Shown piece after piece: positions 2,087 through 15,019 of a stretch of DNA of 18,870 bases. Both the position numbers and the translations under genes were made by a program. The notes beneath the pieces were generated by a model that did not search any database, was not told the origin of the DNA, and saw only the letters and a program-made list of their open reading frames with translations. Every line of letters begins with the position of its first letter. Position 1 is the stretch's first letter. This stretch comes from a virus (Duplodnaviria; Heunggongvirae; Uroviricota; Caudoviricetes), in the IMG/VR virus record IMGVR_UViG_2917886563_000006; one strand, written 5' to 3'.

Positions 2087-2694
2087 GCGGCCTCACTTCT
2101 GCTATTTCGCAGGTCTTTGAGTTTCTGCTGATACTCCGCCTTGATGGCCCTGCACTCTTCGACAGTCCAGCGATGGCGGCTATGGTTTGATTCGATTTCG
2201 TCTACTGCTTCCTGCCCGATGCGGCTAATCAGTTCGACGCGATACGGAACGAGATTTCCGCTTTTGTGCTGGTTGCACACCACGCATTGCTTGTGAATAT
2301 TGCGTTCATCAAATCGGAGTTGAGGTGCCGCAGCAGTTGTCCGGTAATGTCCGGCATCCCACTGAGCAGACGTGAGCGTTCCGCACGAGATACATGGTAA
2401 GTCGCGGTCTCTTTCTCTGATGAAGGCGTTTACAGCTTGTTGGGCTTGTTTAATCCAGTAACTGCGGGGCTTTAAGGCGAGTTTTCGAATCTTCAGTTTA
2501 TCTTTCTGTTTCTGCTCCTCTCGTCGTAGTTTCTTCTCTGCTGCTTTTTCCGCTTTTTCGCGTTCTTTACTTCGTCGTTCGAGTGCTATCTTGGTTCCAC
2601 ACTCTGGAGAGCACCACCACTGATTAGCGAATGCAGGGTGAAACCATTCCCGACATTCATTGTTTTTACATCGTCTTCGCGCTGGTTTAGCCAT
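2083..2694 (-). CDS. ninG: NinG (Rap recombination endonuclease)
   Basis: 203-aa ORF with Cys-rich N-terminus and basic coiled segment; matches lambda NinG as recalled; ATGA overlap with ninH. Confidence 0.9.
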
Positions 2695-2863
2695 CGTCTT
2701 CTTCCTCGTACATTGAGCTATTCGGATCGCTCATCAGTTCTGTGCAGCAGTGCTCACACACGTGAACTTCCAGCACATGCAGCTTCTGACCGCAGTTAGC
2801 GCACGTTAAAGCCCGCTCGACGCTTTCTTTCTGGTATTGAATGGATTGGGATGGGCTAAGCAT
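2687..2863 (-). CDS. ninF: NinF (58 aa)
   Basis: Hand-translated from the - strand: [58 protein letters not shown]; below the ORF-track size cutoff; overlaps the ninG start. Confidence 0.8.
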
Positions 2864-3228
2864 TATTGGATTCTCTGCATCATGAGAAAGACAATCATGG
2901 CGGCGCGGAGGGGATTTTCATGTATAGCTCGCTTAGATTTACAGTAGGCCACACCGCGTGCACCCCACTCGTCTTCATCGAGATTGATAATGCTAATCCT
3001 GTATTTTTCAATAATCGGCCATGCGTCTGCTGGGTTTGCGCATGGGTTAAAGGATCCGCGCTCAACTTCTACTTCAACTGCGTCTCCGTTTACAATGTCT
3101 CCCTCAAATGAGACAAACACCATATCGCCATTCTCACCTTCTTTGTAATCCGGTGATCCGTTATGAATGGCTTCGAATACCGCCACGTTAATTTCAAAAT
3201 CACTTAACTGTGAATAATCCATTGTCAT
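2863..3228 (-). CDS. Hypothetical acidic protein (121 aa from MTMDYSQ...), inserted between ninE and ninF relative to lambda
   Basis: Long ORF with protein-like composition; its ATG at 3228 overlaps the ninE stop (ATGA) and its stop overlaps the ninF start (TAATG). An alternative start two codons downstream (3222) has better RBS spacing. Confidence 0.6.
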
Positions 3229-3401
3229 TTCCTCGCACGATTTCTTAGCCACCGGATATCCCACAGGTGAGCCGTGTAGTTGAAGGTTTTTACGTCAGAT
3301 TCTTTTGGGATTGGCTTGCGTTTATTTCTGGAGCGTTTCGTTGGAAGATATTTGCAGTTTTCACAGATTATGTCGGTGATACTTCGTCGCTGTCTCGCCA
3401 C
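3225..3401 (-). CDS. ninE: NinE (58 aa, GTG start)
   Basis: Hand-translated: (M)[57 protein letters not shown]; AGGAGG four nt upstream of GTG; 34-nt overlap with ninD, as I recall for lambda. Confidence 0.65.
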
Positions 3402-3541
3402 ACGTCCTCCTTTTCCTGCGGTAGTGGTAACACCCCTGTTGGTGTTCTTTCACACCGGAGACACCATCGATTCCAGTAAGGCTGTCCTGGTCGAAAGCGA
3501 TCGTCTTCCTTTCGCTCTCCACATCGATAACAGTGCTTCAT
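3368..3541 (-). CDS. ninD: NinD (57 aa, Cys-rich)
   Basis: [57 protein letters not shown]; start at the internal Met so the ATG overlaps the upstream gene stop (ATGA). Confidence 0.7.
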
Positions 3542-4128
3542 GCGATCACCATTTTGCATGGTTTAATCGCCATGCCGGGAGCCAGTTCAAAATCGGAGTC
3601 GCACTGATTTCCCCACATATCCCACCCGGTCACTTTGTCGCGGCTAAATAACTCACAGCGCGGCACGTCGCCAAGCAACTTAGCTAACATGTCTCTTACG
3701 ATCGGTGGTTTTGCACTGTGCTCCATTCTCGGTGCGGTAAAGTGCTGGCATATTGAAGCGTCCATTCTCTCAGGTAACCGCCCTCGAACGGCAAACAAGC
3801 AATCCTCGCTATTTGCCCGGGTCATATGCCCCATTCCGATCGCACTGTTGCCTTTGTGCTTATTGGTTTTGTGCCAAGTAAAGCCTTTCATAGTCATCAA
3901 CCTGAATCCCCACGCCTCAATTACCTTTAGCGCTTCGGCTGGCTGTGTCGGCACCCACCACATCGCTAACAAGCAAGATTCTGGATCCGCTAAATCCCAT
4001 ACTGGCAGTCGGCAAATGTCCTGAACATTCATAACATCGTATTTATGTCCAGCACCGCGATTGCCATCGTTGGCTTTGTCGCGATATTGCCATGGCGGAT
4101 CTGCGTAAATAAGTTGGTATTTGTTCAT
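3538..4128 (-). CDS. DNA N6-adenine methyltransferase, DPPW-motif (MT-A70/Dam-like family), orphan (no cognate nuclease seen)
   Basis: 196-aa ORF with N-terminal [10 protein letters not shown] (catalytic motif IV of N6-adenine methyltransferases); occupies the position of lambda ninC between ninB and ninD. Confidence 0.8.
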
Positions 4129-4565
4129 TCAGTTTTATCTCCCCATCTCGCTTTCCACTCCAGAGCCAGTCGCGCTTCGTCTGACCACTTAACGCCATGT
4201 TCTGTACCGAATGCCTGTATAAGCTCTAATAGCTCCGCAAATTCGCTTACACGCATCCTGCTGGTTGACTGGCCTATTACCACAAAGCCATTCCCGGCAA
4301 GGTTAGGAACAACGTCTTGCTGCTTTAATGCTGCGGTAAACACACACTTCCAGCTTTCTGCATCCAGCCAGCGACCATGCCATTCAACCTGACGAGAGAC
4401 GTCACCAAGGCAAGCCCAAAGCTTTCGATTCTGGTCTAAGCTGCGGTTGCGTTCCTGAATGGTTACTACGATTGGTTTGGTTGGGTCTGGAAGGATTTGC
4501 TGGATAGCTTGAATGGCGTTCTGCTGATGGATGGGGCTTCTTAGTTCAAACGTTAGTTTCCTCAT
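4125..4565 (-). CDS. ninB: NinB (Orf recombination mediator)
   Basis: 146-aa ORF MRKLTFELRSPIHQQNAIQAIQQILPDPTKPIVVTIQERNRSLDQNRKLWACLGDV... matching lambda NinB as recalled. Confidence 0.9.
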   Translation of the reverse strand: MRKLTFELRSPIHQQNAIQAIQQILPDPTKPIVVTIQERNRSLDQNRKLWACLGDVSRQVEWHGRWLDAESWKCVFTAALKQQDVVPNLAGNGFVVIGQSTSRMRVSEFAELLELIQAFGTEHGVKWSDEARLALEWKARWGDKTE

Positions 4566-11790: not shown

Positions 11791-12498
11791 ATGGATTTGA
11801 ATAAATTCGATGAGCCATTCAGCCCTGAAGATATCGAATGGCGAATACAGCAAAGCGGTAAAACACGCGATGGCAAAGTGTGGGCTATGGTGCTGGCTTA
11901 TGTCACGAACCGGGCAATCATGAAACGCCTTGACGATGTTTGTGGCAAAGCGGGATGGCGCAATGAATACCGCGATATTCCCAACAACGGCGGCGTTGAA
12001 TGCGGCATATCAATCAAGATTGATTCCGAATGGGTAACCAAATGGGATGCTGCTGAAAACACGCAGGTAGAAGCCGTCAAAGGTGGTCGTTCCGGTGCAA
12101 TGAAGCGTGCTGCCGTTCAGTGGGGAATCGGTCGGTATCTGTATAACCTTGAGGAAGGTTTCGCACAAACATCTCTCGATAAAAAGCAGGGATGGCACAG
12201 GGCAAAACTGAAGGATGGAACAGGATTTTACTGGTCTCCTCCATCGCTGCCGGGATGGGCAATGCCAGCATCTGGCAATCAACCATCACCAGAAAATACC
12301 AACCAGAAATCTCCATCGGTTGACTGCGAACAAATCCTGAAAGACTTCAGCGATTATGCATCGACAGAAACTGACAAGAAAAAACTCATAGAACGTTATC
12401 AGCATGACTGGCAATTAATGGCTGGCAATGAGGATGCGCAGGCTAAATGCGTTCAGGTAATGAACATCAGAGTTAATGAACTAAAACAGGCGGCATAA
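11791..12498 (+). CDS. Single-strand annealing recombinase, Rad52/Sak-like (tentative family)
   Basis: 235-aa ORF with GAGGTGA RBS; GGRSGAMKRAAVQWGIGRYLY resembles the conserved core I recall for phage Rad52-like annealing proteins; lies directly upstream of ssb in the position of lambda bet/exo. Confidence 0.7.
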   Translation: MDLNKFDEPFSPEDIEWRIQQSGKTRDGKVWAMVLAYVTNRAIMKRLDDVCGKAGWRNEYRDIPNNGGVECGISIKIDSEWVTKWDAAENTQVEAVKGGRSGAMKRAAVQWGIGRYLYNLEEGFAQTSLDKKQGWHRAKLKDGTGFYWSPPSLPGWAMPASGNQPSPENTNQKSPSVDCEQILKDFSDYASTETDKKKLIERYQHDWQLMAGNEDAQAKCVQVMNIRVNELKQAA

Positions 12499-13005
12499 AT
12501 GGCAAGCAGAGGAGTAAATAAGGTGATTATCCTTGGTCGGGTAGGACAAGACCCGGAAGTTCGATACTCACCATCAGGAACAGCGTTCGCTAACCTGACA
12601 ATAGCCACGTCAGAACAATGGCGAGATAAAAATACTGGCGAGCAAAAGGAATTGACTGAATGGCATCGTGTTGCTGCATCCGGGAAACTGGCTGAGGTCG
12701 TGGGGCAGTATGTGAAAAAAGGTGATCAGATTTATTTCGAGGGAATGCTGAGAACCAGAAAGTGGAAAGACCAGTCAGGGCAAGACCGTTACACAACCGA
12801 GGTTCATGTCGGAATTAATGGCGTGATGCAAATGCTTGGCGGCATTGGCGACAGCAAACAACAAGCAGCCAGCAGGCAATCACAGAAGCCACAGCAGCAA
12901 TCATCCCCAGCACAACACAACGAACCTCCGATGGATTTTGACGACGATATACCCTTTGCACCAGTAACTCTCCCCTTCCCTCGTCACGCTATTCACGCAA
13001 TTTAA
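12499..13005 (+). CDS. ssb: Single-stranded DNA-binding protein SSB (with 15-aa extension beyond the DDDIPF tip)
   Basis: OB-fold N-terminus ([34 protein letters not shown]...), Gln/Pro-rich linker and [10 protein letters not shown] motif; the ORF continues [15 protein letters not shown] before the stop. Confidence 0.9.
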
Positions 13006-13018
13006 TCAGGAGAAAACC

Positions 13019-13312
13019 ATGCCAGCGCCTCTGTATGGTGCGGACGACGCGCGCCGCTGTTCCGGCAATTCCGTATTGGAGGTGCTGGATAAATTCAGAA
13101 AAAACTACGACCTGATAATGTCGCTACCGCAGGAAACGAAAGAGGAAAAGGAATTTCGCCATTGTATATGGCTTGCAGAGAAAGAAGAACGCGAGCGAAT
13201 TTACCAGACATCAATCCGACCATTCCGCAAAGCCACATATACCCACTTCCCTGAAATTGACCCGCGCCTGCGTAATTACCGCTCACGCTATGGCGCTATC
13301 AGTAATGACTGA
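13019..13312 (+). CDS. Hypothetical protein (97 aa)
   Basis: AGGAGA RBS 5 nt upstream of ATG; protein-like composition. Confidence 0.6.
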
Positions 13313-14317: not shown

Positions 14318-15019
14318 ATGCCCAAAATTACCGGTGTTCTAGTGAGCCACCATGTGTTCGATATAAAAAAAGACATGGCTAATGGTTCATTCCCGAAAAC
14401 ATTATTTCCAGGCGCGACATTTCAGATGGTGGTTGACAATGATGTTGTCAATAATAATACGTTGGACTGGAGTGTTGTCACCAATGCGGGAGACAATTCG
14501 CTGACTGTAAATCAGGACGGCGTGGTGTCATTTTCAAATGATATTGATGAAAGTTGCATTGGTAAAACATTTGTTATTTTTGCGAAGGATAAAGCCACAG
14601 GGAAAAATGTGTCATCTTATTTAATTAAACCTTATCGCTTCTTTAAACCTCGTACCGCAACGTCGGACAGATTTTACGATGCATTGTTTTGGATTGAGGA
14701 TAAAAAAGGGACTGTCCCGGCACGACGCGATATCAATAATGTCCCTTTCGATGAACTGACGGGAGAAATGTTTCATGATGTAAAACGTGAAGTGAATTCC
14801 GGGCTTTTTCAGGAATGGGGATTTTTACTGTTTAGTGGGTGGACTAATCCTGTACGTGGTGATATTGGTAGTCTCGAATCAGAAATTTTCACTTTAGAAA
14901 ATGACAGTATATTTATATCGACAGTCAACTCCCTCCCATACTCCAGAGATCTCCATGATGATATGGACTCCCAGTCTGCACAGGCTGTAGCGTTTTACGG
15001 GGAATCTGTTGTTTCCTGA
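14318..15019 (+). CDS. Hypothetical protein (233 aa), cargo of the inverted-repeat-bounded AT-rich cassette
   Basis: Strong AAGGAG RBS 6 nt upstream of ATG; long AT-rich leader (14160-14317, sampled windows about 23-32% GC) and coding region about 40% GC versus a visibly higher-GC phage backbone; no signal peptide or transmembrane segment; no recognisable catalytic motif. Confidence 0.75.
   Translation: MPKITGVLVSHHVFDIKKDMANGSFPKTLFPGATFQMVVDNDVVNNNTLDWSVVTNAGDNSLTVNQDGVVSFSNDIDESCIGKTFVIFAKDKATGKNVSSYLIKPYRFFKPRTATSDRFYDALFWIEDKKGTVPARRDINNVPFDELTGEMFHDVKREVNSGLFQEWGFLLFSGWTNPVRGDIGSLESEIFTLENDSIFISTVNSLPYSRDLHDDMDSQSAQAVAFYGESVVS

What the first reader, a model, noticed from the sequence alone, without database searches (positions are those of the whole stretch)
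12499..13005. SSB with a 15-residue extension past the normally C-terminal DDDIPF tip
In characterised bacterial and phage SSBs the acidic ...DFDDDIPF motif is the extreme C-terminus and is the docking site for partner proteins. Here the reading frame continues for [15 protein letters not shown] before the stop. This could be a real variant (a masked or regulated tip), a point mutation that removed the stop, or a sequencing error. Any of these would change SSB-partner interactions.
Basis: partly seen in the sequence, partly recalled or inferred. Interest (0 to 1): 0.45.

Follow-up and report, generated by a model that had tools for sequence, protein, structure and literature searches.

The report
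Phage SSB with a conserved capped tip
The 15 extra residues after the DDDIPF tip of this prophage single-stranded-DNA-binding protein are not an error: they are a conserved, selected cap found in a large family of mobile-element SSBs, and they bury the C-terminal Phe that bacterial SSBs normally use to dock partner proteins.

Summary
Window 12499-13005 (+) encodes a 168-aa SSB ending ...[26 protein letters not shown]. It is neither a sequencing error nor a recent stop-loss.

Evidence that the tail is a real family feature:
- Viable phages (HK75, mEpX2, mEp235, ECP1, CP-1639, Salmonella epsilon34) encode the same tail. About 5% of complete E. coli genomes match the ssb-tail-abc2 stretch, and every such record inspected encodes the tail.
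- 109 of the 120 best protein homologues, from at least eight enterobacterial genera, have exactly 15 residues after IPF.
- The tail is nearly as conserved as the OB fold (entropy 0.47 vs 0.35 bits; linker 1.47).
- dN/dS is about 0.18 with synonymous sites saturated.
- The tail is predicted disordered, so it is a short linear motif.

In Sf6-type phages an HNH-like endonuclease gene sits exactly between IPF and the tail. It gives the SSB a canonical stop and reads into the tail itself. The tail is native to the SSB, because only about 8 of 77 endonuclease-family clusters carry it.

The same cap occurs beside Rad52-like, ERF, RecT and Sak4-like recombinases. Different short caps after DDDIPF occur in SSB paralogues of Pseudomonas, Rhizobiales, Psychrobacter, Vibrio and others.

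One extra glycine on E. coli SSB abolishes chi and DnaG binding, so the cap most likely blocks canonical host docking and supplies a new C-terminal motif. That function is inferred, not shown.

The parts
11791..12498 (+). Rad52/Rad22-family single-strand annealing protein gene. Its stop TAA (12496-12498) abuts the ssb ATG, in the same frame.
   Evidence: Pfam PF04098 E=5.1e-26; PHROG 1097 E=6.8e-130; ORF list.
12499..13005 (+). ssb gene, 168 codons plus stop: the capped-tip SSB.
   Evidence: The phage HK75 CDS has the same length and is 98.7% identical at the nucleotide level.
12499..12834 (+). OB-fold ssDNA-binding/tetramerisation domain (residues 1-112).
   Evidence: AF2 model pLDDT 82-91 over residues 11-100, strands E8-113; Pfam SSB residues 6-104; mean entropy 0.35 bits.
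12835..12924 (+). Q/S/P-rich intrinsically disordered linker (about residues 113-142).
   Evidence: pLDDT 29-39; mean entropy 1.47 bits, the most variable segment.
12925..12957 (+). Acidic tip [11 protein letters not shown] (residues 143-153). In canonical SSBs this is the extreme C-terminus.
   Evidence: Sequence; aligned to the terminal residues of E. coli SSB 1eqq; entropy 0.16 bits; F147, P152 and F153 invariant.
12958..13002 (+). 15-residue cap [15 protein letters not shown] (residues 154-168). Family motif: [AS]-P-[VIAL]-[TGS]-L-[PQT]-[FY]-[PSG]-[RKS]-H-x-[IVM]-[HY]-[AVL]-[IL]-COOH.
   Evidence: Present with exactly 15 residues in 109 of 120 homologue clusters; entropy 0.47 bits with P155 and L158 invariant; dN/dS about 0.18; disordered in the AF2 model.
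12960..13018 (+). Mosaic boundary. From here on, the DNA is shared (96-99% identity) with phages in which the upstream ORF is an HNH-like endonuclease (Sf6 gp26 type) instead of the SSB.
   Evidence: Megablast hits starting at query position 462 (= window 12960) in Sf6, IME10, N7 and CurroJimenez; boundary mapping against CP-1639.
13008..13012 (+). AGGAG ribosome-binding site of abc2. It lies after the ssb stop, so the tail codons are not needed for it.
   Evidence: Read directly from the sequence.
13019..13312 (+). abc2 (anti-RecBCD protein 2) gene.
   Evidence: Pfam PF11043 E=6e-63; PHROG 656.

Best explanation
This is an intact ssb gene in the PL-operon recombination module (annealase - ssb - abc2) of an HK97/HK022-like lambdoid prophage. 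It belongs to a large clade of enterobacterial mobile-element SSBs whose acidic DDDIPF tip is naturally followed by a conserved 15-residue peptide.

Shown here: the cap is native to the SSB; it is under purifying selection as a peptide; it has a fixed length; it lies on a disordered linker; and it is independent of which recombinase family sits next door.

Inferred: the cap removes the free alpha-carboxylate of the terminal Phe and continues the chain, so it prevents the canonical insertion of IPF-COOH into the SSB-Ct pockets of host partners such as chi, DnaG, ExoI, RecQ and PriA. ssDNA coated by the phage SSB would then be insulated from the host SSB interactome. The cap itself would provide a new, host-clade-specific C-terminal motif that recruits a different partner or controls protein turnover. 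This motif is portable, because an inserted endonuclease gene also reads into it.

In Sf6-type phages, a mobile HNH-like endonuclease cassette has inserted exactly at the IPF|cap junction. It supplies the SSB with a canonical stop and borrows the cap.
For: Real and widespread:
- Same 168-aa product in phages HK75, mEpX2 and epsilon34; 170-171-aa SSBs with the identical tail in CP-1639 and ECP1.
- 269 of 5426 complete E. coli genomes match at least 80% of the 602-nt ssb-tail-abc2 query.
- 109 of 120 best homologue clusters, from E. coli, Salmonella, Klebsiella, Citrobacter, Enterobacter, Kluyvera, Pluralibacter and Phytobacter, have exactly 15 residues after IPF.

Selected as a peptide:
- Entropy is 0.47 bits for the tail, against 1.47 for the linker and 0.35 for the OB fold.
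- pS 0.68, pN 0.26, dN/dS about 0.18 on codons that the search did not constrain.

Linear motif: pLDDT 29-39 for residues 115-168.

Native to the SSB:
- Only about 8 of 77 endonuclease-family clusters have the tail; the others stop 5-14 residues after the CxxCH..WH motif.
- The PHROG endonuclease profile matches gp26 only to residue 143.
- Sf6 carries about 461 nt in place of 15 nt of CP-1639, with 97% and 100% identical flanks, and those 15 nt cannot be derived from the Sf6 sequence by deletion.

Not annealase-specific: the same cap sits beside Rad52-like (window), ERF (L149, L181, L195), AAA_24/Sak4-like (L188, L160) and RecT (L166, L236) genes.

Masking: adding a single Gly to E. coli SSB abolishes detectable binding to chi and DnaG and impairs growth (PMC3045619; PMC3632105).
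Against: - No experiment or structure addresses the capped protein itself. Masking is extrapolated from SSB+Gly.
- The acidic tip remains almost invariant even though it is internal, so it must still do something. A purely 'dead tip' model does not explain that.
- Sf6-type phages, and the ECO3183 prophage region, carry an uncapped version of the same SSB; Sf6 itself is a viable phage, so the cap is dispensable at least there.
- No partner for the cap was identified. The resemblances to clamp-binding or ClpX-type C-terminal signals are impressions only.
Confidence: 0.6

Rival explanations
1. The extension is an artefact or a recent lesion: a sequencing error, or a point mutation that destroyed the stop after DIPF in this particular prophage.
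For: A 15-codon read-through is about what random sequence would give after loss of a stop. One close relative (ECO3183, 97% identical) does stop after IPF.
Against: Identical or conservatively varied 15-residue tails occur in independent phage isolates and in over a hundred homologue clusters from at least eight genera. dN/dS is about 0.18. In ECO3183 the DNA downstream of the stop is unrelated: the match ends at query position 459 and an integrase gene follows. In L258/L259 the same canonical-ended SSB sequence is followed by an endonuclease cassette.
Confidence: 0.01
2. The tail belongs to the HNH-like endonuclease (Sf6 gp26 type). The capped SSB arose when an in-frame deletion removed the endonuclease gene and fused ssb to the last 14 endonuclease codons. 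The tail is then a passenger.
For: The last 14 residues of the window SSB and of Sf6 gp26 are identical, and the DNA from window 12960 onward is shared. Deletion chimeras in this locus do exist (P0281, P0284, P0294, P0323).
Against: Most members of the endonuclease family lack the tail (about 69 of 77), and the PHROG profile stops at residue 143. Capped SSBs are far more diverse than tail-bearing endonucleases, and their tails diverge along with the SSB lineages. The 15 nt GAAATCCCCTTTGCA at the CP-1639 junction cannot be produced by deleting the Sf6 sequence. Endonucleases carry the local tail variants, HAIYAI and [13 protein letters not shown].
Confidence: 0.04
3. The 45 nt are conserved as DNA or RNA: a mosaic 'boundary sequence' that promotes module exchange, or a signal for expression of the downstream gene. 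Its translation would be incidental.
For: Among E. coli, Shigella and Salmonella phages the 45 nt are nearly identical even where the ssb core differs by 12-23%. The segment sits exactly at a mosaic junction and lies upstream of two alternative genes, abc2 or the exonuclease.
Against: Across genera, synonymous sites in the tail are saturated (pS 0.68) while the peptide and its length are kept. There is no promoter or terminator signal above shuffles and no Rfam family. The abc2 RBS lies after the stop.
Confidence: 0.05
4. The cap is a private docking site for the cognate annealing protein encoded immediately upstream, replacing the host-type tip as the SSAP-SSB handshake.
For: The ssb gene is always directly downstream of a recombinase gene and abuts it here. 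HK620 SSB needs its last six residues to stimulate Sak4 (PMC5928155). SSB C-terminal tails are regarded as determinants of SSAP compatibility (PMC12054835).
Against: Essentially the same cap is found next to four unrelated recombinase families: Rad52-like, ERF, RecT and AAA_24/Sak4. Uncapped SSBs coexist with the same Rad52-like gene in Sf6-type phages. The cap is also carried by the endonuclease.
Confidence: 0.15
5. The cap is a regulatory pro-peptide or degron. Either it is clipped to expose a canonical IPF-COOH tip when needed, or its hydrophobic C-terminus (aromatic-small-aliphatic-COOH) targets the SSB, and the endonuclease, for proteolysis, limiting a potentially toxic protein.
For: The canonical tip is kept intact under the cap. 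The cap works as a portable C-terminal tag on two unrelated proteins. Caps in other clades also end in hydrophobic or small residues such as ...YAI...HVI...LAGA...EWAA and ...SVM. The resemblance to ssrA- or MuA-type ClpX signals rests on my own recollection and was not tested.
Against: No protease site or degron was tested. Very short caps such as APEWR do not fit a common degron pattern. Nothing here shows processing.
Confidence: 0.15

Closest known systems
E. coli chromosomal SSB (PDB 1EQQ/4MZ9) and canonical bacterial SSBs
   Same: OB-fold domain about 70% identical by eye in the alignment (to 7f2n, a close E. coli-type SSB; not computed), a disordered Q/P-rich linker, and the identical acidic motif [11 protein letters not shown].
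   Different: In canonical SSBs the IPF is the extreme C-terminus, and its alpha-carboxylate is part of the docking determinant. Here 15 conserved residues follow it. Also, Phe60 of E. coli SSB is Ser in this clade (alignment).
Engineered E. coli SSB+Gly (Naue et al. 2011, 2013)
   Same: An SSB whose IPF is no longer C-terminal.
   Different: It is artificial, with a one-residue extension. It loses chi and DnaG binding and grows poorly. The natural cap is 15 residues, conserved and selected.
Shigella phage Sf6 gp27 (SSB) plus gp26 (endonuclease)
   Same: Same recombination module and the same SSB clade. gp26 ends with the same 14 residues, [14 protein letters not shown]. The Sf6 GenBank record already notes that gp26 shares 14 contiguous residues with an 'E. 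coli SSB'.
   Different: The Sf6 SSB ends canonically (NFDDSDIPF*), and the tail is attached to the endonuclease instead.
Phage HK620 SSB (HkaK/Abc1 slot) with Sak4 (Hutinet et al. 2018)
   Same: A phage SSB encoded between the annealase and abc2. Its C-terminal residues are functionally required for the cognate recombinase.
   Different: HK620 SSB is a distant SSB that ends in NDYPPF, a free tip-like terminus. It has no cap and a different recombinase family.
Freestanding homing endonuclease genes of phages (for example T-even seg/mob genes; from general knowledge)
   Same: The gp26-type gene shows presence/absence polymorphism at one precise site between conserved genes, altered flanking codons on the occupied allele, and a rich set of local deletion chimeras.
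   Different: Cleavage and homing have not been shown. Unusually, the inserted ORF has no stop of its own and reads into the host gene's last 14 codons.

Membership tests
Bacterial-type SSB (Pfam PF00436) | N-terminal OB-fold ssDNA-binding domain | tested here: met
   PF00436 E=2.8e-36 over residues 6-104; AF2 OB fold with pLDDT 82-91; PDB 7f2n E=3.8e-59.
Bacterial-type SSB (Pfam PF00436) | Disordered linker followed by an acidic amphipathic motif D-D-D-I-P-F | tested here: met
   pLDDT below 50 for residues 115-168; [11 protein letters not shown] at residues 143-153.
Bacterial-type SSB (Pfam PF00436) | The IPF motif is the extreme C-terminus, with a free alpha-carboxylate used for partner docking | tested here: not met
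   15 residues follow F153. The importance of the free terminus is shown in PMC3045619 and PMC3632105.
Bacterial-type SSB (Pfam PF00436) | Homotetramer formation and ssDNA binding | not testable with these tools
   Only the sequence correlates are visible: W41, W55-H56 and W89 are conserved, while the F60 equivalent is Ser.
Capped-tip mobile-element SSBs, enterobacterial 15-residue type (grouping proposed here) | Exactly 15 residues after [DN]FDD[DE][IV]PF that match [AS]P[VIAL][TGS]L[PQT][FY][PSG][RKS]Hx[IVM][HY][AVL][IL] | tested here: met
   The window tail [15 protein letters not shown] fits the motif. 109 of 120 homologue clusters share the length and the motif.
Capped-tip mobile-element SSBs, enterobacterial 15-residue type (grouping proposed here) | Located in a phage or mobile-element recombination module next to a recombinase gene | tested here: met
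   A Rad52-like gene is upstream and abc2 is downstream.
Homing-endonuclease cassette (the Sf6 gp26-type ORF; absent from the window itself) | Precise presence/absence polymorphism at a single site with conserved flanks | tested here: met
   About 461 nt replace 15 nt, with 97% and 100% identical flanks. 29 occupied loci all sit at the same junction.
Homing-endonuclease cassette (the Sf6 gp26-type ORF; absent from the window itself) | Recognisable nuclease catalytic motif and demonstrated site-specific cleavage of the empty allele | tested here: inconclusive
   PHROG 2340 'endonuclease' E=2.6e-47 and CxxC...HH...CxxCH motifs, but no Pfam hit. Cleavage is not testable here.

The most novel reading that the evidence does not exclude
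Capping of the SSB tip is a general, previously undescribed strategy of mobile elements across Proteobacteria. Prophage, plasmid and ICE SSB paralogues keep the host-like DDDIPF but follow it with short caps specific to the host clade. Examples are the 15-residue AP.TLPFPRH.IH.I in Enterobacterales, 14-residue APxGLQYP... in Vibrio and Alteromonas relatives, APLHHLAGA and APISRLLLNII in Pseudomonas, APEWR in Rhizobiales, and APHFDGQF in Psychrobacter. These caps would switch the protein from the host SSB interactome to a different, host-specific target, for example to shield recombination intermediates from SSB-stimulated host nucleases, to hijack a host factor, or to evade defences that monitor SSB.
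Probability: 0.35. Interest if true: 0.8.

Novelty: new variant of a known kind. Interest (0 to 1): 0.6.

Why it matters
The free C-terminal ...DDDIPF-COOH of bacterial SSB is treated as the universal hub through which more than a dozen replication, repair and recombination proteins are recruited. A single added glycine is enough to break it.

A large family of mobile-element SSBs keeps the hub motif but buries it under a conserved cap. This implies one of two things: a second, unrecognised mode of SSB-partner communication, or a deliberate way for phages to coat ssDNA with an SSB that host enzymes cannot read.

This bears on three areas:
- how phage recombination modules work and how to port them for recombineering, where SSB-tail compatibility is the known bottleneck;
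- possible dominant-negative effects of prophage SSBs on host replication;
- annotation, because these genes are currently labelled simply 'ssb'.

The endonuclease cassette that splits the SSB from its cap and adopts the cap itself is also a neat natural experiment, showing that the peptide is a portable tag.

Tried and rejected
- **Sequencing error or stop-loss:** rejected on comparative grounds.
- **Origin by deletion of the endonuclease gene:** rejected by boundary mapping and by the tail's distribution in the endonuclease family.
- **cis-acting DNA/RNA element:** no promoter or terminator excess, no Rfam family in the whole window, and synonymous sites are saturated across genera.
- **Folded or intramolecularly docked tail:** the AF2 model built from a 52-sequence alignment leaves residues 115-168 at pLDDT 29-39. 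No fold search was worthwhile.
- **Solved structures:** no PDB chain extends past the IPF, and the tail peptide finds only SSB tips and myosin constructs carrying an SSB-tip tag.
- **Same-slot proteins in P22 (Abc1) and HK97 (gp40):** neither has this tail.
- **Literature:** full-text searches for junction strings (DIPFAP, IPFAPV, PFPRHAI and others) and for SSB C-terminal extensions in prophages found no description of natural capped tips.
- **Representative-library search:** this gave many truncated or frameshifted representatives and only a rough estimate of how common caps are.
- **Clamp-binding-like (PVTLPF vs QLxLxF) or ClpX-type C-terminal signal:** I considered both for the cap. They are unverified resemblances from memory and are not claimed.
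- **Co-folding the SSB with the Rad52-like protein:** not attempted, because only a single-chain, single-sequence input would have been accepted.

Full report
**1. The observation**

The window has an ATG-initiated ORF at 12499-13005 (+) encoding 168 residues that end ...[29 protein letters not shown].
- Residues 6-104 match Pfam SSB at E=2.8e-36.
- The best solved relatives are a close E. coli-type SSB (7f2n) and E. coli SSB itself (1eqq). Their alignments end exactly at query residue 153, the Phe of IPF.

The gene sits in a lambdoid PL-operon recombination module.
- A Rad52/Rad22-family annealase gene (11791-12498) ends with a stop that abuts the ssb ATG.
- abc2, the anti-RecBCD gene, follows at 13019-13312.
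- The window as a whole is the early region of an HK97/HK022-like prophage. It is about 97% identical to HK544, HK446 and mEp213 over about 40% of its length.

**2. Not an error, not a recent stop-loss**

- Megablast finds ssb CDSs annotated as such in phages HK75, mEpX2, mEp235 and Huey (97.8-98.7% identity), in Salmonella phages epsilon34 and g341c (88%), and, in a diverged ssb lineage (about 77%), in ECP1. CP-1639 matches only over the 3' end of ssb, the tail and the start of abc2.
- 269 of 5426 complete E. coli genomes match at least 80% of the 602-nt ssb-tail-abc2 query.
- Translation of six of these (HK75, mEpX2, epsilon34, ECP1, CP-1639 and the window) gives the identical tail [15 protein letters not shown], even where the ssb core and linker differ. 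HK75, mEpX2 and epsilon34 are 168 aa like the window; CP-1639 and ECP1 are 170 and 171 aa.
- In a search of 5.8 billion proteins, 109 of the 120 best clusters have exactly 15 residues after [DN]FDD[DE][IV]PF. They come from E. coli, Salmonella, several Klebsiella species, Citrobacter, Enterobacter, Kluyvera, Pluralibacter, Phytobacter and an uncultured Caudoviricetes genome.
- The tails vary conservatively. Examples are [60 protein letters not shown] and SPVGLQYGKHRVYAL.

**3. Selection acts on the peptide**

- In an alignment of the 109 capped sequences, mean column entropy is 0.35 bits in the OB fold, 1.47 in the linker, 0.16 in the tip and 0.47 in the tail. P155 and L158 are invariant. F160, P161, R162, H163, I165 and I168 are at least 92% conserved.
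- For an unbiased DNA sample I scanned one genome per species for DDDIPF[A/S]P codons, leaving the other 13 tail codons free.
- Among 15 distinct enterobacterial-type tails, pS = 0.68 (near saturation), pN = 0.26 and dN/dS is about 0.18.
- The near-identity of the 45 nt among E. coli and Salmonella phages therefore reflects recent sharing at a mosaic boundary. The family-wide constraint is on the peptide and its length.
- There is no promoter or terminator excess at the site and no Rfam match in the window. The abc2 Shine-Dalgarno lies after the ssb stop.
- AlphaFold2 with a 52-sequence alignment gives a confident OB fold (pLDDT 82-91) and leaves residues 115-168 at pLDDT 29-39.

The cap is therefore a short linear motif on a flexible linker.

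**4. Where the tail comes from: an endonuclease cassette at the IPF|cap junction**

- Many phages that lack this ssb still match the window from position 12960 onward, which is exactly where the extension begins.
- In Sf6 the order is annealase, SSB gp27 (ending NFDDSDIPF*), gp26 (159 aa) and abc2. gp26 ends ...[20 protein letters not shown]. The Sf6 GenBank note already records that gp26 shares 14 contiguous residues with an 'E. coli SSB'.
- gp26 matches PHROG 2340 'endonuclease' (E=2.6e-47), but only over residues 1-143.
- In 29 loci with such an ORF, the upstream SSB always stops right after IPF.
- Boundary mapping against CP-1639 (same ssb lineage, no endonuclease) shows that Sf6 has about 461 nt in place of the 15 nt GAAATCCCCTTTGCA (E-I-P-F-A). 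The flanks are 97% and 100% identical. The cassette brings its own S-D-I-P-F-stop for the SSB and has no stop codon of its own. Those 15 nt cannot be generated by deleting the Sf6 sequence.
- In the endonuclease family, only about 8 of 77 clusters carry the tail. The rest end 5-14 residues after the CxxCH..WH motif.
- A lineage only 47% identical to gp26 (P0292) sits at the same junction, behind a window-type SSB that ends NFDDEIPF*, and carries the variant tail ...HAIYAI.
- A Cronobacter relative (P0274) sits after an ERF-linked SSB and has no tail.

The cap is therefore native to the SSB. The endonuclease is a mobile insertion that splits the SSB from its cap and adopts the cap. The one canonical-ended close relative, ECO3183, has exactly the SSB sequence of the L258/L259 endonuclease-bearing form, followed by unrelated DNA.

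**5. What the cap is not**

It is not a handshake specific to one annealase fold. Essentially the same cap occurs in four settings:
- after Rad52-like genes (window; L129, L135);
- after ERF genes (Proteus L149, Atlantibacter L181, Kluyvera L195);
- after AAA_24/Sak4-like genes (Enterobacter L188, Trabulsiella L160);
- after RecT genes (Tatumella L166, Providencia L236).

The proteins in the same slot in P22 (Abc1) and HK97 (gp40) lack it.

**6. A wider pattern**

The same genome scan returned about 100 SSB-like ORFs, each with a Q/P/G-rich linker and DDDIPF, whose frame continues into short extensions specific to the lineage:

| Lineage | Cap after DDDIPF | Length |
|---|---|---|
| Pseudomonas | APLHHLAGA-type | 9 |
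| Pseudomonas / Stutzerimonas | APISRLLLNII | 11 |
| Rhizobiales and other alphaproteobacteria | APEWR / APEVR | 5 |
| Psychrobacter | APHFDGQF | 8 |
| Paenalcaligenes | APLLARCEYVI | 11 |
| Competibacteraceae | APHLRGGEWAA / APVLKGAEYLA | 11 |
| Gallionella | APHGKNGAGVSWSAM | 15 |
| Vibrio, Pseudoalteromonas, Rheinheimera, Oceanisphaera | APxGLQYP... | 14 |

- About 24 chance matches were expected for the whole database, so most of these hits are real.
- The contexts I inspected look like mobile elements, with recombinases, exonucleases, RdgC, methyltransferases and integrases nearby.
- Among the best 150 representatives of 50%-identity clusters, 67 end canonically and about 10-13 carry short caps. 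The rest are truncated or frameshifted.
- I found no paper describing natural capped SSB tips.

**7. Mechanism**

Shown: the cap is real, selected, disordered, native to the SSB, portable to another protein, and independent of the neighbouring recombinase family.

From the literature:
- The C-terminal Phe and its carboxylate are docking determinants.
- SSB+Gly loses detectable binding to chi and DnaG and grows poorly.
- Phage SSB C-termini can be required by their recombinases.
- SSB tails are considered key to annealase compatibility.

Inferred:
- The cap blocks the canonical docking mode, so ssDNA covered by the phage SSB is not read by the host SSB interactome.
- The cap supplies a different C-terminal signal, which tracks the host clade.

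Whether that signal recruits a host factor, recruits a phage factor, or sets protein half-life is open. The strict retention of the acidic tip under the cap argues that tip and cap work together, or that the tip's intramolecular role is retained.

**8. Verdict**

- The finding is real, but the 'anomaly' framing is wrong. This gene is an ordinary member of a common, unstudied variant class of SSB.
- Novelty lies in recognising the cap as a conserved, selected feature, with a broader family of caps across Proteobacteria, and in the endonuclease cassette that exploits it.
- Confidence that the cap is a genuine family feature: about 0.97.
- Confidence in the masking-plus-new-signal mechanism: about 0.5-0.6.

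Noticed in passing
L002 2067-2546 (Sf6 gp26); also L004, L020, L025, L132-L134, L258-L259 and about 20 other loci: An HNH-like endonuclease ORF (155-160 aa) is inserted exactly between the SSB IPF codon and the cap. It has no stop codon of its own and reads into the SSB's last 14 codons. The upstream SSB then ends ...DDSDIPF* or ...DDEIPF*. This looks like a homing-endonuclease cassette whose occupied allele differs from the empty allele at the likely target site.
   Followed up: yes
L136-L255 (genome-contig scan), e.g. L174, L142, L157, L159, L139, L155, L208: SSB paralogues with DDDIPF followed by short caps specific to the host clade occur across Proteobacteria: APLHHLAGA, APISRLLLNII, APEWR, APHFDGQF, APLLARCEYVI, APxGLQYP... 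and others. They sit in contexts that look like mobile elements.
   Followed up: partly
L005 2016-2564, L006 2016-2564, L004 2554-3102, L135 5514-6065: An Rv2179c-like 3'-5' exonuclease gene (PF16473, E=1.3e-73) is an optional insert between the capped ssb and abc2. Its start follows the ssb stop within about 10 nt (TAAGGACTTACATG).
   Followed up: partly
Proteins P0281, P0284, P0294, P0323, P0330, P0333: Chimeric products from this locus: an SSB N-terminus fused to the endonuclease C-terminus plus tail, and an endonuclease N-terminus fused to the Rv2179c-like exonuclease. The region is evidently prone to deletions between short homologies.
   Followed up: no
L258 2060-2527: A second, unrelated HNH_3 endonuclease gene is inserted between the Rad52-like gene and ssb in one E. 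coli prophage, so two endonuclease genes flank the same ssb.
   Followed up: no
window 12676-12684 (residues 60-62, 'AAS'): The position equivalent to Phe60 of E. coli SSB, one of the aromatic ssDNA-stacking residues, is Ser in this SSB and in the clade consensus (...WHRVVISGK...). W41, W55 and W89 are kept.
   Followed up: no
window 12496-12501: The Rad52-like gene's stop (TAA) is immediately followed by the ssb ATG in the same reading frame (TAAATG). This suggests translational coupling. The same arrangement is seen in HK75, Sf6, epsilon34, L129 and L135.
   Followed up: partly
window 14318-15019 (+): A 233-aa ORF downstream of the recombination module has no PHROG match at E<=0.001.
   Followed up: no
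L003 (E. coli ECO3183) 2501-4368: A 97%-identical ssb ends canonically (NFDDEIPF*) and is followed after about 160 nt by two integrase genes instead of abc2. This is probably a truncated derivative of the endonuclease-bearing form seen in L258/L259.
   Followed up: partly
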